Position numbers and translations under genes: made by a program
The notes under the pieces: generated by a model
Told to the model about the DNA's origin: nothing
The model's input: only the letters and a program-made list of their open reading frames with translations
Databases searched by the model: none
Shown here: piece by piece, positions 7,508-45,650 of the stretch
Position numbering within the stretch: position 1 is the stretch's first letter
Layout of the letters: the number at the start of each line of letters is the position of its first letter
Assembly (NCBI RefSeq): GCF_009914755.1
Contig: NC_060925.1
Reading direction: 5' to 3' (one strand)
From: the human T2T-CHM13v2.0 reference genome, Homo sapiens
Length of the DNA: 64,000 bases

Positions 7508-8164
7508 CTTACCTTTGATATTTTAATTTCACTATGATGTGTTTAGGTATGGATTTATCCTGCTTAAAACCCAAATTTCATGATTCTTATTTTTCATTAA
7601 TTCAGAAAAATAGTCATTATTTTCTGAGTCTTATTTTCTCAACAGAGAAATGTTTCTCTGTTCTCAACAGATAAAAATATTTCTCTCTTTTCCCATCTTT
7701 TGGAACATAGATTTGGTATATGTTGAACATTTTCATTTATTCTATGTGATTCTTCATTTCTCTTTTGCAGTGGCTATAAAAATTATCATTCATTTTTCAA
7801 TGCTGCATTCTAGTTAATTTCTCCGGATCAGTCATCTAGTTCTCCACTTCTTTCTACAGGTCTTTAATCTGCTATTTAACCTACTTAAGGGGTTTTAAAA
7901 ATCCAGTGCTTATGTTTATCATTTCTACATGCTTTAGGGATTTTGGTCTTTAATTAATTTAAATGTTCTTATAGACTATAACAAACAATTCTATTTTCTA
8001 AAGTTCTTGGGAGTCTAACTCTGCTTTTTGTTATTTCTACCTACTCTTGCTTACCTGGATTGCTTTTTGAGTGTGGTAAAATTTTATTTAGTAAGTCATA
8101 CTTGGTGGGGATCCTGTGTGGCTTACATTCATGGGATGTCTTTCTAGAGCAATGTTTCCATTTT

Positions 8165-8312
8165 CTTCTTCAACTTTTATTTTAAATTCTGGGGTACGTA
8201 TGCAGGATGTGCATGTTTGTTACATAGGTAAACATGTGCCATGGTAGTTTGCTGCACAGATCATCCCATCACCTAGGTATTAAGCCCAGCATCCATTAGC
8301 TATTCTTCCTGG
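8165..8312 (-). mobile_element. Short L1P 3'-end fragment
   Basis: caacttttattttaaattctggggtacgtatgcaggatgtgcatgtttgttacataggtaaacatgtgccatgg... Confidence 0.8.
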
Positions 8313-8334
8313 TGTAGAGCAGTGTTTTTTAATT

Positions 8335-8482
8335 TTCCTGCATATTAGATTAATCTACTGAGCCTTTAAATATCAAGATGCCAGGTTGAAGCTCAGACCA
8401 GTTAACTCAGATACTGTGAGTATGAGACTGAAGCATCAGTGTTTTTAAAACCTCACAGTCAAGATTGAGAACCATTGCTCTA
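8335..8482. mobile_element. MER5-type hAT MITE
   Basis: Ends in caagattgagaaccattgctctag and contains MER5A-like gcatcagtgtttttaaaa. Confidence 0.55.
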
Positions 8483-10599
8483 GAGAAAATTTGCCTTTGA
8501 TTTTTACAGGCACTGTGAGTGTGTTTTCAGACCTGGACCAGTTTAATATCAGTGTCTCAACTTTGGGTTCCTGAACTATATAGGTAGCATAAATTTGAAA
8601 CTCATGTTTGGGGAACCTTTTTCTTTCTCTCATCAAACATGTAGGCTGAGATAGACAGATTCCTTGTCATCTCTTTGCACTTAGAGAGTAGCCCTTTAGG
8701 GGTCATGGGGGCAAGGAAGGGCTCTGTTCTACTTCATCAGGTTGAGCAAACCCAAGGCTTCATTGTTGATTCCGTATGTCTGTGAAATCCTGAACTTCTT
8801 GATTACCAATATTAACAAATGCCCTCTGTGTGACTTAAATGTCGATGCCAGTGCAGCAGTTCTATGTTTATGTCTTTTTCTGATTTTGGTTCTAAATTCC
8901 TCTTACTTCCGTGAGAGCTCAGCTGTACATTTAGAATCTTTGTTATATTTAACAATTCTCAGTTTTTCTGTGTACTTACATCACACTATTGCTAGAAATA
9001 GAAGTCTTGCTATGATGGCATTCTCTACCTTTGTGGCCATGCCCTACCCTTTGGGATCATCCTCTTTTCCAGATGCCTGCCTAAACCAAGTGTGAACTTG
9101 CTGTGTCTTTAGACATGGTGCATTGGGTTTGCAAGTGTCTATCTGGCAGGCCCCTGGAGCTTGTATGTGTTCCTTCACCCTGCTTGGCTTGGTCTTGGCT
9201 TTGTCTTAATCCATCTGGTCTCTGTTGCCAAGGTCTAGGCATGCTTTGAATTCCAACCTACCTGAATTATGTCAACCTCTATTCTTTTTCTTGTGTTTCC
9301 AAGTCTTTGTCTTCACTCACTTGCTAAACTCAGGTCTGGTTTCAGTTTATTTCCTGGACTCATCTTTCCACAAAGGACTCGCTTTCCCTGATTTGAGGGT
9401 TTGTAGCACAGTTTATAACACCATGGGAGTGAGTCCAGCTCAGGATTCACATTTCTAGGATGCCAAGATGGTCTGAGCAAATAGCTTCTAACTTTATATG
9501 TCATTAAAAAAACACTTGTTACTGAGTATGTAAATTCCAAATACTTTCTATTATATATTGATAACATTTGTACCTATAGTATTAATTGAAGATAAATGCT
9601 GTATCACTGATTTTGTCAGGAAGAAGGATACCCTTTACAGTTGAGGATACACTTTTGTTTTTTTTAAATTTGCTTAATTCATGTATAGCCATCTTCCTGT
9701 GTATCAAATAAAACCAGCTGTGACTGGATTGTGGCTCTTGTAGTCCATGCAACCTTTTTACTCTGAGACCTTGGAAGGAAGCTGAGTTTGGTGGAAAGCA
9801 TCCAGAGAACTCTTGGCAGCCTTGATGGATCATTTACCCCAGTTTGGACTTTTCTATCTCTTTTAGGAAGCTCTGCTGAGATCATTACTGAAACATCAGT
9901 TTTCCTCAGAGAATAACCCCTGGTCTTCTGCCAGTGGAGTTAGCATTTGGTTATGAAGATGGCTTTGAGAATTAAATAAGATACCTGGAGGCAAGAGTGC
10001 ATTATGTACCGGTAGTGAGCCCACAGAAATGATAGGTTGCATGATTGTTGGTGGATAGTGGTCTAATATAATCTTTAATCTTTCATCTATCAATTGCATC
10101 CTTTAGGATTTGTGTTAATGCCCCCCTTTCAATCATTCTGTCTTTATTTAGATTTCTCTTCATATTTTCTGTCTTTTCTTTCTTGGCAGTATCTTCAAAA
10201 GTAATTAGGCGGCTGTCCCAGAAGTTGCCTTTGAAGATTGTTGCAATGTGTATACCTGTCAAAAGGAATTGACCAAACCCTGCTGAAAGCTATTTTACAC
10301 ATCAATTTATGAACCAATCTCAGCTCTTCTGTTCTGAGCTGATCATCCAGAATGATCCAAAAGGAAACCATCAGAGCCAATCATAGTGCCTGGAGTGATT
10401 TTCAGATGCCTTTTTTTCTTCTTTTACTTACACAGGGCACTCGGGAATCTTGCACTCTGGATGAACCCAGTTTACATTTTGGTTGGGATGGGGAAAGTAG
10501 AGCTTTAGACTTTATTTTGAAGGCAAAAACCCTTTTATTTACATAGGAAACATTTCAATTCTATATGGTTTTTTTTTTCTCTTTGTTTTCTTTTCTTCT

Positions 10600-35704: not shown

Positions 35705-36378
<674 letters not shown>

Positions 36379-36930: not shown

Positions 36931-38046
<1,116 letters not shown>

Positions 38047-38447
38047 TGTAAGGCTCTTGTATCGGTTTGAACCCTGAAAGCGCACCAACGAACAACACAA
38101 GGCGGTGTGGAGCAACACGCTGTTTTAATGTGTGCCTGGGTGCAGACGGGCTGAGGCTTAAAAGGGCATCAGCACCAAATGCGGACAGGGCAGCAGTTTT
38201 ATAGTCTCCTGTAAACAGGAAGTGTCTCAGTCTGATGTAACTGCTATGCAGTACCTGGACAGCAGTACCTCTCTCGGTCTTCAGGGGGTACATGTCTTCC
38301 GGCCAGTTCTCTTCCTGCTTCTGCCATCTTGCTGACAAACACTGTTGGCACAAGTGGTCTTGTGCCTTGGGACTAGGCCTCAGAAGTGAGGAGTTATTCA
38401 CCACCACCTCCCCCCGCCGGCTTCCAGGCCCTGGGGAAAGTCTTTCA
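38047..38447 (-). repeat. 3' LTR (MER48-like)
   Basis: tgaaagactttcccc...gagccttaca on the minus strand; TATAAAA at 38197-38203, ATTAAA at 38124-38129, ETS site caggaagtg. Family name from recall. Confidence 0.9.
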
Positions 38448-38550
38448 TTCTTGTCTATTTGGTTATAGAAAAAGGGAAAAGCGACGACTTTCTCAATAAC
38501 TACTTCAAGCGTGACATAGGGGGTGGTGTGGCCACCTTGGAAACAAAAAC

Positions 38551-38925
38551 TTAATTTTGGGGGTATTTTTGAGAGATGGGTTGGTATTCATCATGTCGTT
38601 GCAGCAGGAGCATCGTCTGGATTGTCTGGTGGTTAACTATGGTTTCAACAAGACTTTTATTAGCTTTTATTATTAGTGGGATAATACAGGGGAGAAACAG
38701 GAGGAGCCCAGTGATGAAGATTACTGTCCCTACCAGCATTTTAAATCCTCTTAAATTAGAGAACCACCCTCCTAGAATGTTTGTTGGGTCCCATCCCTTC
38801 CAGGTTTGGACTGGTACATGGGCTACTTTTCTGATGTTTGAAGCGATTTATAGTACTGTTTTTCCATTATCGTCTATGTTAAGACAACAATTGGAGATAT
38901 TAAACTTACCACAAACCTCACCTTC
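38551..38925 (-). pseudogene. env remnant: C-terminal TM only
   Basis: [46 protein letters not shown]...MLVGTVIFITGLLLFLPCIIPLII (cysteine loop, membrane anchor). One internal stop; SU absent. Confidence 0.9.
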
Positions 38926-41738
38926 TGAAGTTGTTTGGAACTACCCACCTGGAGAAAGTACAGACAAAGACTAGAAGATAGTGGAGCTGTTTATCGGGTG
39001 GGATGTGAGTGAAGTCTACTTGCCAATCTTGCCCAGGTACCTGTCTCTGGGCTTGGTGGGTAGGAAAAGGCAGTGGCTGGAGGGAGCCCTGGGGTGACAC
39101 TGAGTGGCAGATAGAGCAGGACTGGGTGATTTCTTGAACACAGCTGGAAAGGTGAGGACAAGTGAGAATAGGGCGGAGAAGTTGTAAGAGAGGTTTGGAA
39201 CTGACATGGAAAAGTTGTGGAGACTTTGGGGGATAGGGATTGTTTGAGAGTGAGGAAGAACGAAGCGCCCTTCCTTGACCTACCATGGTCCTTGCTTTTG
39301 AAGGTTTTGGGCTCAGAAGTCCTCCTTTTCTTCCGAGGATTAAAGAGGAGAGAACAAGGACAGGGACAAAAACTGGCCTTGCACAGGTTGTAGGTGTACT
39401 TGTTTGGCTACCTAATCTGCTAGTGCATTTCCAGCTGCTATAGGATCGTATGGAGTTTGGTGGCCCCTGCAATGAATGATGGCAACTTTCTGTGGGAGCC
39501 TGGCAGCTTGAAGGAGTTTGTTGATGAGAGAGCCATGTATGACAGGAGTGTTTTTTGCAGTTAGGAAACGCTGTTCTTTCCAGATGGAAGAGTGTGAGTG
39601 CACTATGTGGAATGCATAATGAGAATTTGAATATATGTTGATCTGTTGTCTGGCTGCTAGAGTGAGAGCTTGAGTGAGGGCAATGAGTTCAGCTTTTTGG
39701 GAGGTGGTTCTTAGAGGGAGCATATTGGCTTCAATAGTGTGTGGGGGGTGACACTATAAAATAGCCAGCATGTTGGTGTCCTTGATGTAGGAAGGAGCTG
39801 CCATCTACAAACCAAGTAAAGGAGGCATCTGGAAGGTGTTGGTCTGTTAGGTTTGGAAAATGTATAAGAAATGTTTGAACAGTGTTCACACAGGAGTGCG
39901 TAGGGTCTTGGGTGGTTGTAGCTTCAGGTAAGAGTGTAGCCAGGTTTAGACAGGAGCTGGTTAGCATGGTGATGTGGGGAGTTTCTATGAATAGAGCATA
40001 GAGTTGGAGGAGCTGTTGGGCAGAGATGAGACTTAGTACACTGCAGTGAGCTAGCATGTCTTTGATGTTATGGGTTGAATAAACTGTTAGGTTGGCATGA
40101 AGAGATAGTTTTAAGCTTTCAAGGGTGAGGATAGCAGCTGCCGCCAATGCTTGGAGGCAGGCAGGCCATCCAAGAACTGTGGCTTCAAGCTGTTTAGGCA
40201 ACAACCTGGAAGGTGGGTCCCTTAGACTGGGTTAGAACACTTATTGCAACTCCACATCATTCATTGGTGTAGAAGGAGAAAGGTTTGGTGAGGTCTAGGT
40301 CTGGGAGAGTGAGGACGGGGGCTGAGGCGAGAGCCTTCTGGAGTAGACGGAAAGGTTAGGTAATAGGCAGTGCAGGGTTTAAAGGCTCATGGAGAGGGCC
40401 TTTAGTGGCTTGGTATAACGGTTTGGTGAGTAGAGCGAAGGAGGGAACTCAGAGCCTAAAATATCCTGCTAGTCCTAGAAAAGAGATAATTTCTTGCTTA
40501 GTTTGTGGAGGTGGGAGGGACTGGAGGAGGGATATGCCATCGGTTGTGAGCCCTCGGGTTTGCGGGGTAAGAGCTAGGCCTAGATAGGTGACTGGGGGGG
40601 TGCTTATTTGTGCTTTCTTAGGGGAGACCTGATGCCCCCATTCTGCCAAGAAGTTTAAAAGAGAGATGGTATGGACATTGCAGTCTCTTTGAGAGGGTCT
40701 ACATAGGTGTAGATCATCAACATACTGAAGGAGAGTGGATGGTTTTAGGGATAAGGTACAGAGGTCACGAGCCAGGGCCTGCCCAAAAAGGTGGGGGCTG
40801 TCTCTGAAACCTTGAGTTAGTATGCACCAGGTAAGCTGATGTGAAAGGTGGGTGTCGGGGTTTTCCCATGTAAAGACAAAGAGGTTTTGGGAATCAGGGT
40901 GTAAAGGAATTGTGAAAACAGCATCCTGTAGGTCTAGAACAGAAAAACAGGTGGTGTTGGAGGGAATTGCAGAAAGTAAAGTATATGGTTTAGGAACTAC
41001 TGGACATACTAGGGGTATGGCTTGGTTAATGAGCCTGAGGTCCTGGACTAAGCAATAAGTTCCATCTGGCTTTTTGACAGGTAGAATTGATGTGTTAAAA
41101 GGGGAGTCTGTTGGGCAGAGTAGGTGACTGACAAGGAGGTGAGAAATGATAGGCTTTAGGCCTATGAGAGCTGCTTGGGGGATGGGATACTGCTTCTGTG
41201 ATAGGAACTGGGTGGGGACTTTAAGAGTAACGTGGACAGGGGTGTGGTGTTTTGTGATTGAGGGTGTGGAAGTATCCCAAACAGTGGGGTTAACTATGGA
41301 TGGGGGACAAGGAAAGGTTGCATGTTTTAAGGTGGGAGGTTGGAGGAGTAGAAGAAAGTTAGAAGCCCCAGAGGGGTCTGGGTTGATGCGTTGGGTACTA
41401 TGGGGAATGTGGAAGTGGAGAGTAGTGTGGAGTTTTGAAAGGATGTCTCTACTTAGGAGCAGAGTTGGGCATGAGGGCAGGACTAAGAAAGAGTGAGTGA
41501 AGGAAAAGGTGTGCAGGGAGCAGAAAAGTGGAGAGGTGGCTCGGGGTTTGGAGACTTGTCCATCAATTCCCACAACAGAGACTTGGGAGGACTGGGTGGG
41601 TCCTGAAAAATTAGGTAAAGCAGAGTAGGTTGCCCTGGTATTAATTAAAAAACATACTGGCCTACCTGCCACCATCAGGGTTACCCTTGGATCACATGAA
41701 GAGATGGTAGTTGCCGGGGTGTCTGTTCCAGGGCACTG
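38926..41738 (-). pseudogene. pro-pol remnant (protease, RT, RNase H, N-terminal integrase), frameshifted
   Basis: PR 'FLINTRATYS' (DTG decayed); RT 'QGFRDSPHLF', 'LQYVDDL'; RH 'WFVDGSS', 'QKAELIAL', 'IIHCRGHQ'; IN 'GQDWQVDFTH'. Confidence 0.92.
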
Positions 41739-43512
41739 TCAGTCTTCAGCAGCAAGGCTGATGAGATACGAGTAGGAGGTTTTGACTGGCTCAGGAAGGG
41801 ATGGGGGCAGTCCTTGTGGGGGCTGCTCACAGTCTGACTTCCAGTTGGGTCCTCCACAGAGGGGGCACAGCCTGGTGGGCTTACCTGGGTTTGGGCATTG
41901 TCTGGACCAGTGGCCTTCATTGCCACACTTGAAACAGGCACCAGGTGGAGGTGGATTGCTAGGAGGCTTCTGTGTGGAGCTGCGGCCCCGTGGGCCCACA
42001 GAGCCCCTGATGGCAGAGGCAAGCATTTGAAACTCTGCCTGTTTTTTGCCTTTTACTTTTCTCATCACGATTGTTAAGGACTTTGAAGGCTAAATTAAGA
42101 AGGTCTCGTGTGGTTTGAAGGCTGTCGTCAAGCTTCTGAAGCTTGCGCCAAATACTGGGGGTGGATTGGGAGATGAACTGAAGGTTTAAGATAGTGGTTC
42201 CTTCTGGGCTGTCTGGGTCTAGGTTGGTATACTTTCTCATGGCTTCAGTTAAACGAGACAGAAAAGGGCTGGGTTTTTGTCGGGACCTTGGGTGATTTCT
42301 GAAAGCTTTTCATGGTTGACTGCTTTATGAGCACCCTTTTTGAGTCCTGTAAGGAGACACACAATCATGTGGTCTTGATGGCGGCGTCCAGGGGCCCTGT
42401 CTTGATAATCCCAGTGGGGGGCCTGGTTGGGGACTGCCTCTGTGTCACTAGGCTGGGCAGGAGCTTGGTGATGAATTGTATCAGCATGCGCCTGAGCTAG
42501 GGTCCAGATACGGTCCCAGTCTTCTGGGGTGAGGGTGGAAGAGAGGATAACATAGAGGTCATGCCAGGTTAGTTCATAAGACTGGGTGAGGTACTGAAAC
42601 TCTCTAATATAAGAGGTAGGATCTTCTGGAAATGAACCGAGTCTTTTGTTAATTTGAGAGAGATCAGTGAGGGGGAAGGGAACATGAACTCTAACAATAT
42701 CTTTAGTTCCTGCTACTTCCCAAAGTGGGCACTCTAGCACAGGCGCTGAAGTAAGCGTGGGGCATGGGCCAAAGATGGCACCTGAGCGAGTATGGGAAGG
42801 AGAGAAGGAAGAGCCTGGAAGTGGTTCCTGCTGAGGGTTTGAATGGGGAAAGGGGGTTTGAGTTAACAGGCAGTGGAAGATAGGGGCGTAAGGTGGCGGG
42901 ATGAATTTGCAAGCCTCAGGAGAGGGCGGTGGGGGAGGACAATGGGTACAGGCAATTCTAGAATTGTCCTGAGGAGGGGACGGTGTAGAAAAAGAAGTGA
43001 ATACAGCTGACTGGGAAGATGGCAGCTGGGAAGATGGCGGCTGAGAAGCTAAAGAGGAGGCTTGGGGGTTAAAGAAGATGGTTGAGAGGGGAGAGGTAGG
43101 GGCTGGGAGAGGTAGACAGCAGACTGCTGGATCAAACAAGGAAAAAGAGGTGGGGTGGGGAGGAGGAAGGCGATCTGGGTGGTGAGAATGGAGGAGAATG
43201 ATTTGAACAGGTGAGCAAGAATTGCAGAGGTCAGGTTGTGATCTGAGTGCAAAAAGGCCTGGACATAAGGAATTTCTCCCCATTTCTCCAGTTGTCGGCA
43301 ATAATTGCTTAAATTAGTTAAAATTATAAAGTCGAATGTTCCATTTGTGGGCCATTTGGACCTGTTATGTAATTCGTACTGTGGCCAGATTGAATTGCAA
43401 AAAAAGACAAGGCGCTTAGGGCGGATATCTTGCATGAGGCCTAAGGTCTGCAGGTTTTTTATGAGGCAGCCTAGAGGCTGCCTTTTGGAATGGAAGACTG
43501 GGAATTTCCCAT
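41739..43512 (-). pseudogene. gag remnant (MA-CA-NC), frameshifted
   Basis: ATG at 43512 (MGNSQSS, myristoylation-type start); MA 'IWPQYELHNRSKWPTNGTFDF'; PPPY late domain; CA 'LGSFPEDPTSYIREF'; zinc knuckles CFKCGNEGHWSRQC and CPLCGGPNWKSDC. Confidence 0.92.
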
Positions 43513-43616
43513 AACGGAGGGTAGGCTCGGGAGAACAGGGAAAAGGAGACCATCCTGGACGGCCGGAGGGAGATGATAAAAGGAGCGATCGTCACTGCTG
43601 CCTTTTTCAAGGCCTT

Positions 43617-43883
43617 GTTCATGTTCCCTTCCCCCTCACTGATCTCTCTCAAATTAACAAGACTTGGTTCATTTCCAGAAGACCCTACCTCTTATATTAG
43701 AGAGTTTCAGTGCCTCACCCAGTCTTATGAACTAACCTGGCATGACCTCTGTGTTATCCTCTCTTCCACCCTCACCCCAGAAGACTGGGACCGTATCTGG
43801 ACCCTAGCTCAGGCGCATGCTGATACAATTCATCACCAAGCTCCTGCCCAGCCTAGTGACACAGAGGCAGTCCCCAACCAGGC
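43617..43883 (+). repeat. Inverted duplicate of gag segment 42421-42689 lying in the proviral leader
   Basis: Reverse complement matches over 267/269 nt with 4 substitutions and one 2-nt indel. The plus-strand ORF 43573..43887 repeats the CA peptide. Confidence 0.95.
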
Positions 43884-44159
43884 TTAGAGGCATCCCCCTA
43901 AGACCAGATGATCAGTGAGTGCCTGGCACATGCCAGAGCCTTCTTGGACCAACATTGGATCTTTGGATTGGAGAAACCAAGAGAGGCCACGTGGATTTTT
44001 CTCTGTTAACGCGGCTCCTGGGAAATTTATCAGTAGATGAGATCAGTGACTGGTGTGCATGCACAGAGAGGTGACTGGAGGCTGAGGAGCTTCCTTTGTC
44101 CGGTTGCTGTGGACTACCGTCCAGGGTGGAAGGACACAAGGGACGCGGACCGGGGCCCC

Positions 44160-44177
44160 TTCCAGATTTCGGCACCA
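44160..44177 (-). other. Primer-binding site, tRNA-Phe type
   Basis: TGGTGCCGAAATCTGGAA, 2 nt after the 5' LTR; 15/18 match to TGGTGCCGAAACCCGGGA. Confidence 0.85.
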
Positions 44178-44179
44178 GA

Positions 44180-44583
44180 TGTAAGGCTCTTGTATCAGTT
44201 TGAACCCCGAGAGCGCGCCAATGAACACCACAAGGCGGTGTGGAGCAACGCGCTGTTTTAATGTGTGCCTGGGTGCAGATGGGCTGAGACCTAAAATGGC
44301 ATCAGCACCAAATGAGACCGGGCAGGGGTTTTATAGTCTCCTGTAAACAGGAAGTGCCTCAGTCTGATGTAACTGCTACAGGGTACCCGGACGGCCTCTC
44401 TCTCAGCCTTCAGGGGGTACGTGTCTTCTGCCGGCCGTCTCTCTTCCTGCTTCTGCTGTCTTGCTGATGCACGCTGCTGGCGCAAGTGTTCTTGCGCCTT
44501 GGGACTGGGCCTGAGAAGGGATGAGTTATTCACCCCCTCACCCTCTTCCCGCCCAGCTTCCAGGCCTCAGGGAAAGTCTTTCA
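44180..44583 (-). repeat. 5' LTR (MER48-like)
   Basis: Direct repeat of 38047-38447 with roughly 45-50 differences by eye; TATAAAA at 44329-44335. Confidence 0.9.
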
Positions 44584-45650
44584 AGAATGTGTTGGAGAAC
44601 TGTTCCAGTGAGCACAGGGCTAGGGTAGGAGGATGAATGTTGGTTCCTCAGGGCAGGGTACCTTTCACAGCTGTATGTGGAAGGAAGTGAGGGAGGCCTC
44701 CAAACTGAGGATGGGGGTTGGCAGGTGGACAGAAGGTACTGGTTCTAGGAATAAGCTACCCACTGAATGGGAGTTCCTAGATTGGGGTTCTTCCTGGCTG
44801 CCTTGGAGTTCTTCCATCATATCTTTGTAATTGCTTCTTTCCTTTGCATCCAGGGAAGCTTTTGCAAATGGATTGTGTTTAATTTTCAGCTGTGAGCTCT
44901 TCATTCTGATAAGCTGTCACAGTTATTTATGAACTAGGTCTCGGAAAGCAATGGCTAGTGATCATGTGTTGTGGACACCCCACTCTCACTATGTGAATTC
45001 GAGGCTGGTGCTTATTAAGGAGTTTGACATAATCAGGCCCCCTCTGTGTAGCTAGTTGTTGATCTTGACTTTGCTGAGGGAGATGGACACCTTCATCTAG
45101 TAGGGCCCTGAGTTGGGGGAATTGGGCTGGATGGGCACACACCTGAGCACCTGCAGCTCAGGCTTGCCCTCTGGCACCCATTCCTGGTTCCCACTCCTGG
45201 TTTTCTTCCAGCGCTTACTGTGGGCCTCCATGAAGTCCAGCAAGAAGGAGTACATGGCTCTTAAAGCCAGGCCAGACATGCTTGGCACTGGAAACAACTT
45301 CCTGGCATTCCTGGTGGTGATCATGTCATTGGTGAGCTCCTTGAAGCATAGCCACAACTTGCTCTCCTCCAGGCCTATGTGCCACTTTCACTCTACATGG
45401 TCACCCTTCTCAATGCCTGGCTTGTTGCTCACGCTTCATGGCTCTCAGCAGGTGGTCCACTCGGTACTGCAGGCTCTTCGATGCACACTCTTACCAGTGC
45501 TGTGGGAGCTCATTCTCCTGCCTGCCTCCCCCGCACCCCCACTTTCTTCTAAGCCCCAACTTGCTACTTGAGAACCATCTTTACCTCTCCAAGACCTATG
45601 AAGGTGCCTGGGTCCCTGTATAGACTTGGAGGAGGGTAAGGACGGAGATC
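44584..45650 (-). pseudogene. Processed Brachyury (TBXT/T) pseudogene, 5' part: 5'UTR, ATG (45513), T-box and exon 5-6 equivalent
   Basis: Intronless, frameshifted: MSS.. / SLQYRVDHLL / GLEESKLWLCFKELTNDMITTRNARKLFPV / AMYSFLLDF / EWVPEGKPE / HQPRIHIVRVGCPQHMITSHCF / VTAYQNEE / LKIKHNPFAKASLDAKERSNYKDMMEE / CPPANPHPQFGG / CERYPALRN / NSSPT. The 5' boundary is approximate. Confidence 0.93.

What the first reader, a model, noticed from the sequence alone, without database searches (positions are those of the whole stretch)
42421..43883. Young 267-bp inverted gag duplication that could fold the proviral RNA into a long hairpin around the gag start
Seen: 43617-43883 is the reverse complement of 42421-42689 with only 4 substitutions and a 2-nt indel (~98%), separated by 927 nt that include the gag ATG (43512). 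The left junction carries the palindrome AAGGCCTT. The two LTRs, identical at integration, differ by about 11-12% by eye. Inference: the duplication is several-fold younger than the provirus (template switch/MMBIR) or is being homogenised by gene conversion. Any 5'-LTR transcript would carry a ~265-bp dsRNA stem, a possible ADAR/MDA5/Dicer substrate and source of silencing RNA against this HERV family. The arms could also drive recurrent inversion of the spacer.
Basis: partly seen in the sequence, partly recalled or inferred. Interest (0 to 1): 0.7.

Follow-up and report, generated by a model that had tools for sequence, protein, structure and literature searches.

The report
Private inverted patch inside an HERVH48
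One old viral insertion inside the human RGL1 gene carries a 267-base piece of its own capsid gene copied backwards about 1 kb upstream, most likely a DNA-repair scar a few to about 15 million years old; it is predicted to fold RNA into a long double helix, but near-perfect intronic hairpins like it are catalogued by the hundred and nothing here shows a function.

Summary
The repeat is real. 42421-42689 and 43617-43883 are inverted, with 4 substitutions, one 2-nt gap and a 927-nt spacer. It lies in an HERVH48 provirus (38047-44583, minus strand, 5-nt target duplication) inside an RGL1 intron. None of 28 family copies fetched has it, and hg19 coordinates show it too, so it is neither family consensus nor a T2T artefact. 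The copy plus an 8-nt filler replaced about 21 nt of leader. One junction has 3 nt of microhomology; the filler repeats and inverts the adjacent flank. This is the signature of microhomology-primed template switching (MMBIR/polymerase-theta-like repair; inferred). The arms differ by 1.5% against 13.1% for the LTRs and share three private non-synonymous changes, so the copy likely post-dates integration (last 10-40% of residence; roughly 3-15 Myr). A duplex of 264-266 base pairs is predicted on either strand. A published list holds 197 longer near-perfect pairs within human transcripts, including a 701-nt one in RGL1 itself, barely expressed (FPKM 0.0025). No evidence here for immune sensing, siRNA or inversion. 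Real and well resolved, but ordinary.

The parts
43617..43883 (+). Inserted arm (arm B): inverted copy of capsid-coding gag, placed in the proviral leader; reads as gag on the + strand, antisense to the provirus
   Evidence: absent from all 25 of 28 paralogues that reach the leader
42421..42689 (-). Template arm (arm A): native gag, within the Gag_p30 capsid match
   Evidence: PF02093, E 4.1e-11; sister to arm B in a 30-row tree, support 94/95
43881..43883 (.). 3-nt microhomology shared by the leader and the template end
   Evidence: paralogue leaders match the window up to and including these 3 nt; alignments end at 43881
43609..43616 (.). 8-nt filler AAGGCCTT; its first and last 5-mers are a direct and an inverted copy of the adjoining flank, making a 5-bp hairpin at 43600-43613
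   Evidence: (148 of 65536 8-mers, 0.2%, have this property)
42690..43616 (-). 927-nt spacer (predicted loop) with the gag ATG at 43512; same orientation as in the family
44180..44583 (-). 5' LTR (MER48), followed by a tRNA-Phe-type primer binding site at about 44160-44177
   Evidence: Vargiu 2016 Table S1 row rvnr 6124 gives MER48 and PBS type F
38047..38447 (-). 3' LTR; 13.1% diverged from the 5' LTR and its sister in the LTR tree (95/89)
38047..44583 (-). Whole HERVH48 provirus with broken gag-pro-pol and an env remnant, flanked by the 5-nt target-site duplication ATTCT, antisense within an RGL1 intron
   Evidence: hub annotation

Best explanation
The repeat is a one-off, locus-private inverted copy of 267 nt of the provirus's own capsid gene, likely made by microhomology-primed template switching during repair of a germ-line break in the leader long after the virus integrated, and it likely has no function. 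Shown: about 21 nt of leader are replaced by 272 nt; one junction has 3 nt of microhomology; the other has an 8-nt filler built from the flank; the donor is the same provirus, 0.9-1.2 kb away. Inferred steps: a broken 3' end annealed at 3 nt to the opposite strand in gag, copied 264 further nt and fell off. It then made one or two short rounds of synthesis on the far flank (the filler) and was joined. Both strands are predicted to fold into a 264-266-bp duplex. The usual carrier would be RGL1 pre-mRNA, where the duplex is intronic, nuclear and short-lived, probably ADAR-edited when made, and tolerated like other near-perfect intronic pairs.
For: Private: 0 of 28 fetched paralogues have an inverted gag repeat; the junction 61-mer matches in full only here, of 10 candidates scored. 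Cis donor: the arms are sisters, 94/95. Junctions. They fit the described features of MMB-TI (PMC8421209, passages), locally templated insertions (PMC7165422, passages; PMC5728401, passages) and class 2 TSIPs (PMC5110952, passages). Post-integration: 4 of 267 vs 52 of 397, Fisher P 1.5e-8. Even the most conservative expectation for an integration-age pair, 11.2 differences, gives P(4 or fewer) = 0.013. Three private changes are shared by both arms and all are non-synonymous. Ordinary context: 197 human pairs over 300 nt and over 96% lie within RefSeq transcripts, and only 20 exceed FPKM 0.01 (PMC7006430, parts 1-2 of 5 read). One is in RGL1 at FPKM 0.0025.
Against: No ape or monkey orthologue could be examined, so the age rests on 4-5 mutations; the internal split gives 0.40 (95% 0.16-0.76) of the lineage. 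The polymerase is not identified. A 264-nt tract is far longer than typical polymerase-theta synthesis, which is rarely over 10 bp per round, so only the filler fits that enzyme well. The neutrality claim rests on a proxy 43 kb upstream in poly(A)-type data (recalled for GTEx), not on reads at this locus. This copy lacks the donor-like motif found at about 44030 in 17 of 25 distinct paralogues, so an LTR-driven transcript might keep both arms.
Confidence: 0.78

Rival explanations
1. The duplication arose during reverse transcription of the founding virus, is as old as the provirus, and has since been homogenised by gene conversion between the arms.
For: Both arms share all 3 private changes and 2 decayed CpG sites, which conversion would also produce. 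Deletion-with-insertion errors of retroviral RT are known (recalled; search returned no direct paper). The differences all fall in the first 137 of 269 nt.
Against: The outer 40 nt of both ends are identical (P = 0.035 to under 0.001 if ends escape conversion), and shared private sites lie 16-28 nt from the edges. The clustering is not significant (P = 0.20). The flank-templated filler resembles DNA end-joining.
Confidence: 0.1
2. Whatever its origin, the repeat works like maize Mu killer: read-through RNA from RGL1 or the 5' LTR folds into a hairpin whose products dampen HERVH48 transcripts, or that acts as an endogenous MDA5/PKR ligand.
For: Predicted duplex of 264-266 bp with a 132-bp perfect run, against 21 bp for the nearby Alu pair. 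All 28 paralogues share exact 21-mers with the arms (2-101 for arm A), 60 of them with the ERVH48-1 provirus. Some HERVH48/MER48 LTRs are active promoters (PMC4375928, passages; bioRxiv 2020.08.23.263665, passages).
Against: No expression, editing or small-RNA data for this locus were found. The comparable RGL1 pair is at FPKM 0.0025, and 0 in muscle. The family's LTR pairs average 11.3% divergence, so the virus was probably long inactive when the repeat arose. Human cells make little siRNA from long hairpins, and nuclear intronic duplexes seldom reach MDA5 (recalled; consistent).
Confidence: 0.05
3. The patch was copied from RNA or cDNA of this provirus or of RGL1 pre-mRNA (RNA-templated break repair) rather than from DNA.
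For: No target duplication, no poly(A), a microdeletion and microhomology are the class 2 TSIP features.
Against: TSIP donors are described as distant, not nearby. Here the donor is about 1 kb away and inverted, which local DNA template switching explains directly.
Confidence: 0.05
4. The structure is an assembly artefact of T2T-CHM13.
For: No reads were examined here.
Against: hg19-to-T2T offsets are 609,850-609,851 left of the site and 609,862 right of it, where absence of the +251-nt net insertion would shift them by about 251. The hg19 table marks the third twentieth of this provirus as antisense HERVH48. The arms differ at 5 events and the junction has a unique filler.
Confidence: 0.01

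Closest known systems
Germ-line microhomology-mediated templated insertions (MMB-TI; Osia et al. 2021, PMC8421209) and locally templated insertions of TMEJ/SD-MMEJ (PMC7165422, PMC5728401)
   Same: Nearby template, inverted copy, 3-nt microhomology, small deletion at the site, short filler that repeats and inverts the flank.
   Different: The main tract (264 nt, about 1 kb away) is longer and more distant than the yeast signature (within 100 bp) and than single polymerase-theta rounds; it appears fixed rather than newly polymorphic (present in two assemblies).
Class 2 templated sequence insertion polymorphisms (Onozawa and Aplan 2016, PMC5110952)
   Same: No target duplication or poly(A); microdeletion, microhomology and added nucleotides; size in the 73-414-bp range of experimental insertions.
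   Different: The donor is local, not distant; the added nucleotides look templated.
Long near-perfect inverted duplicated sequences in human pre-mRNA (Barak et al. 2020, PMC7006430)
   Same: Inverted pair over 96% identical within a RefSeq transcript, arms under 2 kb apart.
   Different: 269 nt falls under their 300-nt cut-off, so it is not among the 20 chr1 rows of Table S8. It arose by duplication within one element.
Mu killer of maize (PMC3440606, abstract and passages)
   Same: Partial inverted duplication within a mobile element's coding region, readable by a flanking gene's transcription.
   Different: Mu killer has about 1300-bp arms, demonstrated dominant silencing and an active target family. 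Here the arms are 267 nt, silencing is untested and the family is long decayed.
ERVH48-1 (suppressyn) provirus, chr21
   Same: Same family: 86-87% identity over gag-pol; its ORF is identical to suppressyn, PDB 8OUI.
   Different: It has no gag duplication; it has an 87% inverted Alu pair flanking gag instead. The window copy keeps only an env remnant.

Membership tests
HERVH48 / MER48 provirus | Internal sequence like other HERVH48, including the ERVH48-1 provirus | tested here: met
   86.6% over 2149 nt and 86.1% over 1951 nt to L036, which encodes suppressyn; Vargiu row 6124 similarity image is HERVH48, though its summary label is non-canonical HERVH
HERVH48 / MER48 provirus | About 400-nt MER48 LTRs with a target-site duplication | tested here: met
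   404- and 401-nt LTRs, ATTCT on both sides; MER48 label
HERVH48 / MER48 provirus | tRNA-Phe primer binding site | tested here: met
   Window sequence after the LTR equals the PBS typed F in Vargiu row 6124
Microhomology-mediated templated insertion (MMB-TI / TINS / class 2 TSIP-like) | Insert copied from a template that remains intact | tested here: met
   Arm A intact and sister to arm B
Microhomology-mediated templated insertion (MMB-TI / TINS / class 2 TSIP-like) | Microhomology or microhomeology at junctions; microdeletion; no TSD or poly(A) | tested here: met
   3 nt at one junction; a replaced stretch of 21 nt in 20 of 25 rows scored; filler at the other junction. Three nt alone is weak, 1 in 64 by chance.
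Microhomology-mediated templated insertion (MMB-TI / TINS / class 2 TSIP-like) | Dependence on polymerase theta or on BIR interruption | not testable with these tools
   Single ancient event
Hairpin silencing locus (Mu killer type) | Inverted duplication able to fold into a long duplex | tested here: met
   Predicted 264-266 bp
Hairpin silencing locus (Mu killer type) | Transcript spanning both arms accumulates | tested here: inconclusive
   Inside the annotated RGL1 span (hub annotation); proxy 43 kb upstream at FPKM 0.0025; no reads for this locus
Hairpin silencing locus (Mu killer type) | Small RNAs made and family members silenced in trans | not testable with these tools
   No small-RNA data held
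Recurrent (toggling) inversion | Both orientations segregate; usually long flanking repeats | tested here: inconclusive
   Spacer in family orientation in T2T and sense in the hg19 image. 23 of 32 recurrent inversions have repeats of 10 kb or more, though 132 of 183 balanced inversions have repeats of 200 bp or more. The call-set tables could not be seen.

The most novel reading that the evidence does not exclude
A repair scar turned an intronic HERVH48 into a human Mu-killer-like locus. RGL1 read-through, or the unspliced LTR transcript of a copy that lacks the family's donor-like motif, folds into a 265-bp near-perfect duplex. Its edited or diced products tune HERVH48 RNA, including the suppressyn provirus, in embryo, trophoblast or germ line of great apes.
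Probability: 0.04. Interest if true: 0.75.

Novelty: new member of a known kind. Interest (0 to 1): 0.2.

Why it matters
As it stands it is a clean, datable example of a fixed germ-line templated inversion-insertion. About 25 family copies serve as the pre-event reference, so both junctions can be read to the base. It is also a ready test site for how a nearly perfect 265-bp intronic duplex is edited and kept out of the cytoplasm, with A-C mismatches on the viral strand and G-U wobbles on the host strand. It would matter much more only if RNA from it were shown to regulate HERVH48 or suppressyn, or to trigger dsRNA sensors when LTRs are derepressed.

Tried and rejected
Family consensus feature: rejected; 0 of 28 fetched copies carry it (40 of 55 candidates were scored and 10 weaker matches were not fetched), and the first 8 of 24 HERVH48 chains in the hg19 table are wholly sense. 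The self-inverted hits in L005 and L024 are Alu pairs. LTR mismatch as the cause of the high LTR divergence: rejected, the two LTRs are sisters. Clustering of arm differences as a sign of conversion: not significant (P = 0.20). Excess of changes in the copied arm (4 events vs 1) as a sign of error-prone synthesis: not significant (P = 0.375). A distant source for the filler: a 7-of-8 match exists at 43254, so a third template switch is not excluded, but the adjoining flank explains all 8 nt. Literature: 0 papers for 'HERVH48_1q25.3'; no paper on this repeat among the listings; RGL1 is not named in the Barak supplements or in the Porubsky preprint text. The supplements of that preprint are closed and the journal version is not held, so an inversion call at this site cannot be excluded. 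ARAGORN found nothing. The bacterial promoter scan is irrelevant except for confirming the 5-bp junction hairpin. One search printed a net insertion of 254; the correct figure is 251.

Full report
Observation. A self-comparison of the window finds 42421-42689 and 43883-43617 at 97.77% over 269 columns, with four mismatches and one 2-nt gap, 927 nt apart. It is the only one of 45 inverted pairs of 100 nt or more in the window at 90% or better. The ATG at 43512 exists but its frame stops after 13 codons. The palindrome is at 43609-43616.

Setting. The arms lie in a provirus on the minus strand, 44583 to 38047, bounded by LTRs of 404 and 401 nt and the 5-nt duplication ATTCT. Pfam finds Gag_p30, zinc knuckle, protease and RT in separate frames, and a weak matrix match below its cut-off (3 of the 7 frames given had no match). 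The provirus is 86-87% identical to a chr21 copy whose ORF is identical to suppressyn, PDB 8OUI; that provirus is HERVH48 (bioRxiv 2020.08.23.263665, passages). Vargiu et al. 2016 list this very element in hg19 as row 6124, with a MER48 LTR, PBS type F and an HERVH48 image, under the summary label non-canonical HERVH (PMC4724089, passages and supplement rows). By the hub annotation it sits antisense in an RGL1 intron.

Private, and not an artefact. A search of the own genome with arm A gave 40 matches from 40 of 55 candidates scored; 28 paralogous loci were fetched. None has an inverted gag repeat. Twenty-five reach the leader and run across the site with only about 20 nt where the window has 272. 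The junction matches in full only here. A published 701-nt inverted pair left of the site fixes the hg19 offset at 609,850-609,851 and the 5' LTR right of it gives 609,862. A difference of 11 nt, not about 251, means hg19 holds the insertion. The hg19 table also flags the third twentieth of the element as antisense.

Junctions. On the viral strand the leader matches the paralogues up to a 3-nt stretch (43883-43881) that is also the end of the template. The replaced stretch is 21 nt in 20 of 25 rows scored, out of 30 examined, two being duplicates. In 12 of those 25 rows its last four bases equal the last four of the insert, a possible second microhomology. Between insert and flank lies AAGGCCTT. 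Its first five and last five bases are a direct and an inverted copy of the adjoining flank; 148 of 65536 8-mers (0.2%) would pass that test, which I chose after seeing the sequence. It makes a 5-bp hairpin at 43600-43613. These are the features described for MMB-TI, SD-MMEJ, TINS and class 2 TSIPs, all read as passages. In a 30-row tree the arms are sisters (94/95, bootstrap not fully settled), so the donor was this provirus.

Age. The arms differ at 4 of 267 columns (1.5%; 95% 0.4-3.8%) and the LTRs at 52 of 397 (13.1%; 9.9% without CpG), Fisher P 1.5e-8; the ERVH48-1 LTRs differ by 8.4%. The family's canonical LTR pairs average 11.3%. Against a simple ratio, gag in this copy has a short branch of 3-5%. 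An integration-age pair would still be expected to show 11-16 differences, and 4 or fewer has P 0.013-0.0004. By paralogue states, four events are derived in the inserted arm and one in the template. Three private changes are shared by both arms (a fourth at the alignment edge was dropped), all non-synonymous, as expected of neutral decay before the copy was made. The copy dates to 0.11 (0.03-0.29) of residence by LTR ratio and 0.40 (0.16-0.76) by site split. Borrowing the 27-38 Myr age of ERVH48-1, that is about 3-4 or 11-15 Myr, with extremes of 1 and 29. Conversion of an old pair is disfavoured, since both outer 40-nt ends are identical (P 0.035 or less), but only orthologues can exclude it.

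RNA. The viral-sense strand is predicted to close a stem across the whole repeat (-748 kcal/mol). Two-strand folds give 264 pairs on the viral strand and 266 on the RGL1 strand, with a 132-bp Watson-Crick run; the inverted Alu pair 5 kb away manages 21. Mismatches are three A-C and one G-U on the viral strand, and the reverse on the host strand. So the duplex is of better quality than Alu pairs. But Barak et al. count 197 human pairs over 300 nt and 96% within RefSeq transcripts, of which 20 exceed FPKM 0.01 and 2 exceed 0.1; such pairs are almost absent from mRNA (PMC7006430, parts 1-2 of 5 and Table S8 rows). One row is a 701-nt, 96.291% pair that I located exactly in RGL1, 43-50 kb upstream, at FPKM 0.0025. 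That is a proxy only, and GTEx poly(A) selection (recalled) understates introns. For an LTR transcript: the 5' LTR keeps TATAAA at 44335 and other MER48 LTRs are active. This copy lacks a donor-like motif present at about 44030 in 17 of 25 distinct paralogues (19 of 27 rows), so such a transcript might retain both arms. No call shows that it is made.

Inversion. The spacer is in family orientation (25 of 28 paralogues cover it collinearly). Inverted repeats of 200 bp or more flank 132 of 183 resolved balanced inversions, but 23 of 32 recurrent ones have repeats of 10 kb or more (bioRxiv 2021.12.20.472354, passages). Its supplements were not visible, which bears on whether an inversion is recorded here.

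Comparison and verdict. By origin it is a microhomology-mediated templated insertion; by form a near-perfect intronic inverted pair just under a published cut-off; by analogy a small Mu killer (PMC3440606, abstract and passages), whose defining silencing activity is untested here. I found no paper describing this repeat, though it shows as an antisense flag in a 2016 table. A preprint already counts inverted repeats across human ERVs (bioRxiv 2024.02.07.579350, passages). New member of a known kind; interest 0.2; novel regulatory reading 0.04.

Noticed in passing
window 37365-38046 and 44584-45588, minus strand: The provirus splits the TBXT processed pseudogene. The annotated part (LOC100420254) stops at the 5' LTR, but the sequence resumes after the 3' LTR and matches the next two exon-like blocks of the same chr6:167.53-Mb gene (70-80%). 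That half has no row in the annotation.
   Followed up: partly
G000:C5:28318469-28319733: A second, more decayed intronless copy related to the same gene (66-79% to the window's pseudogene).
   Followed up: no
L039:1583-2283 and 7803-8503 (window-relative -7418 to -498): RGL1 holds a second, longer near-perfect inverted pair, 701 nt at 96.3%, listed in Barak 2020 Table S8.
   Followed up: yes
L036:6950-7246 and 9439-9735: The ERVH48-1 (suppressyn) provirus has two inverted Alus (87%) flanking gag; one is inserted about 40 nt from the position homologous to the window's insertion.
   Followed up: no
window about 44030: The donor-like motif seen in 17 of 25 distinct paralogue leaders is absent from this copy.
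   Followed up: partly
window 35823-36117 and 36931-37227: Inverted Alu pair, 82%, about 810 nt apart, in the same intron, 5 kb from the repeat.
   Followed up: partly
window 38047-38447 vs 44180-44583: LTR divergence is uneven, about 16% in the first 240 columns and 9% in the rest, and high relative to the short gag branch of this copy.
   Followed up: partly
L036:6123-6304: A 56-nt-period tandem duplication (97.6%) in pol of the ERVH48-1 provirus.
   Followed up: no
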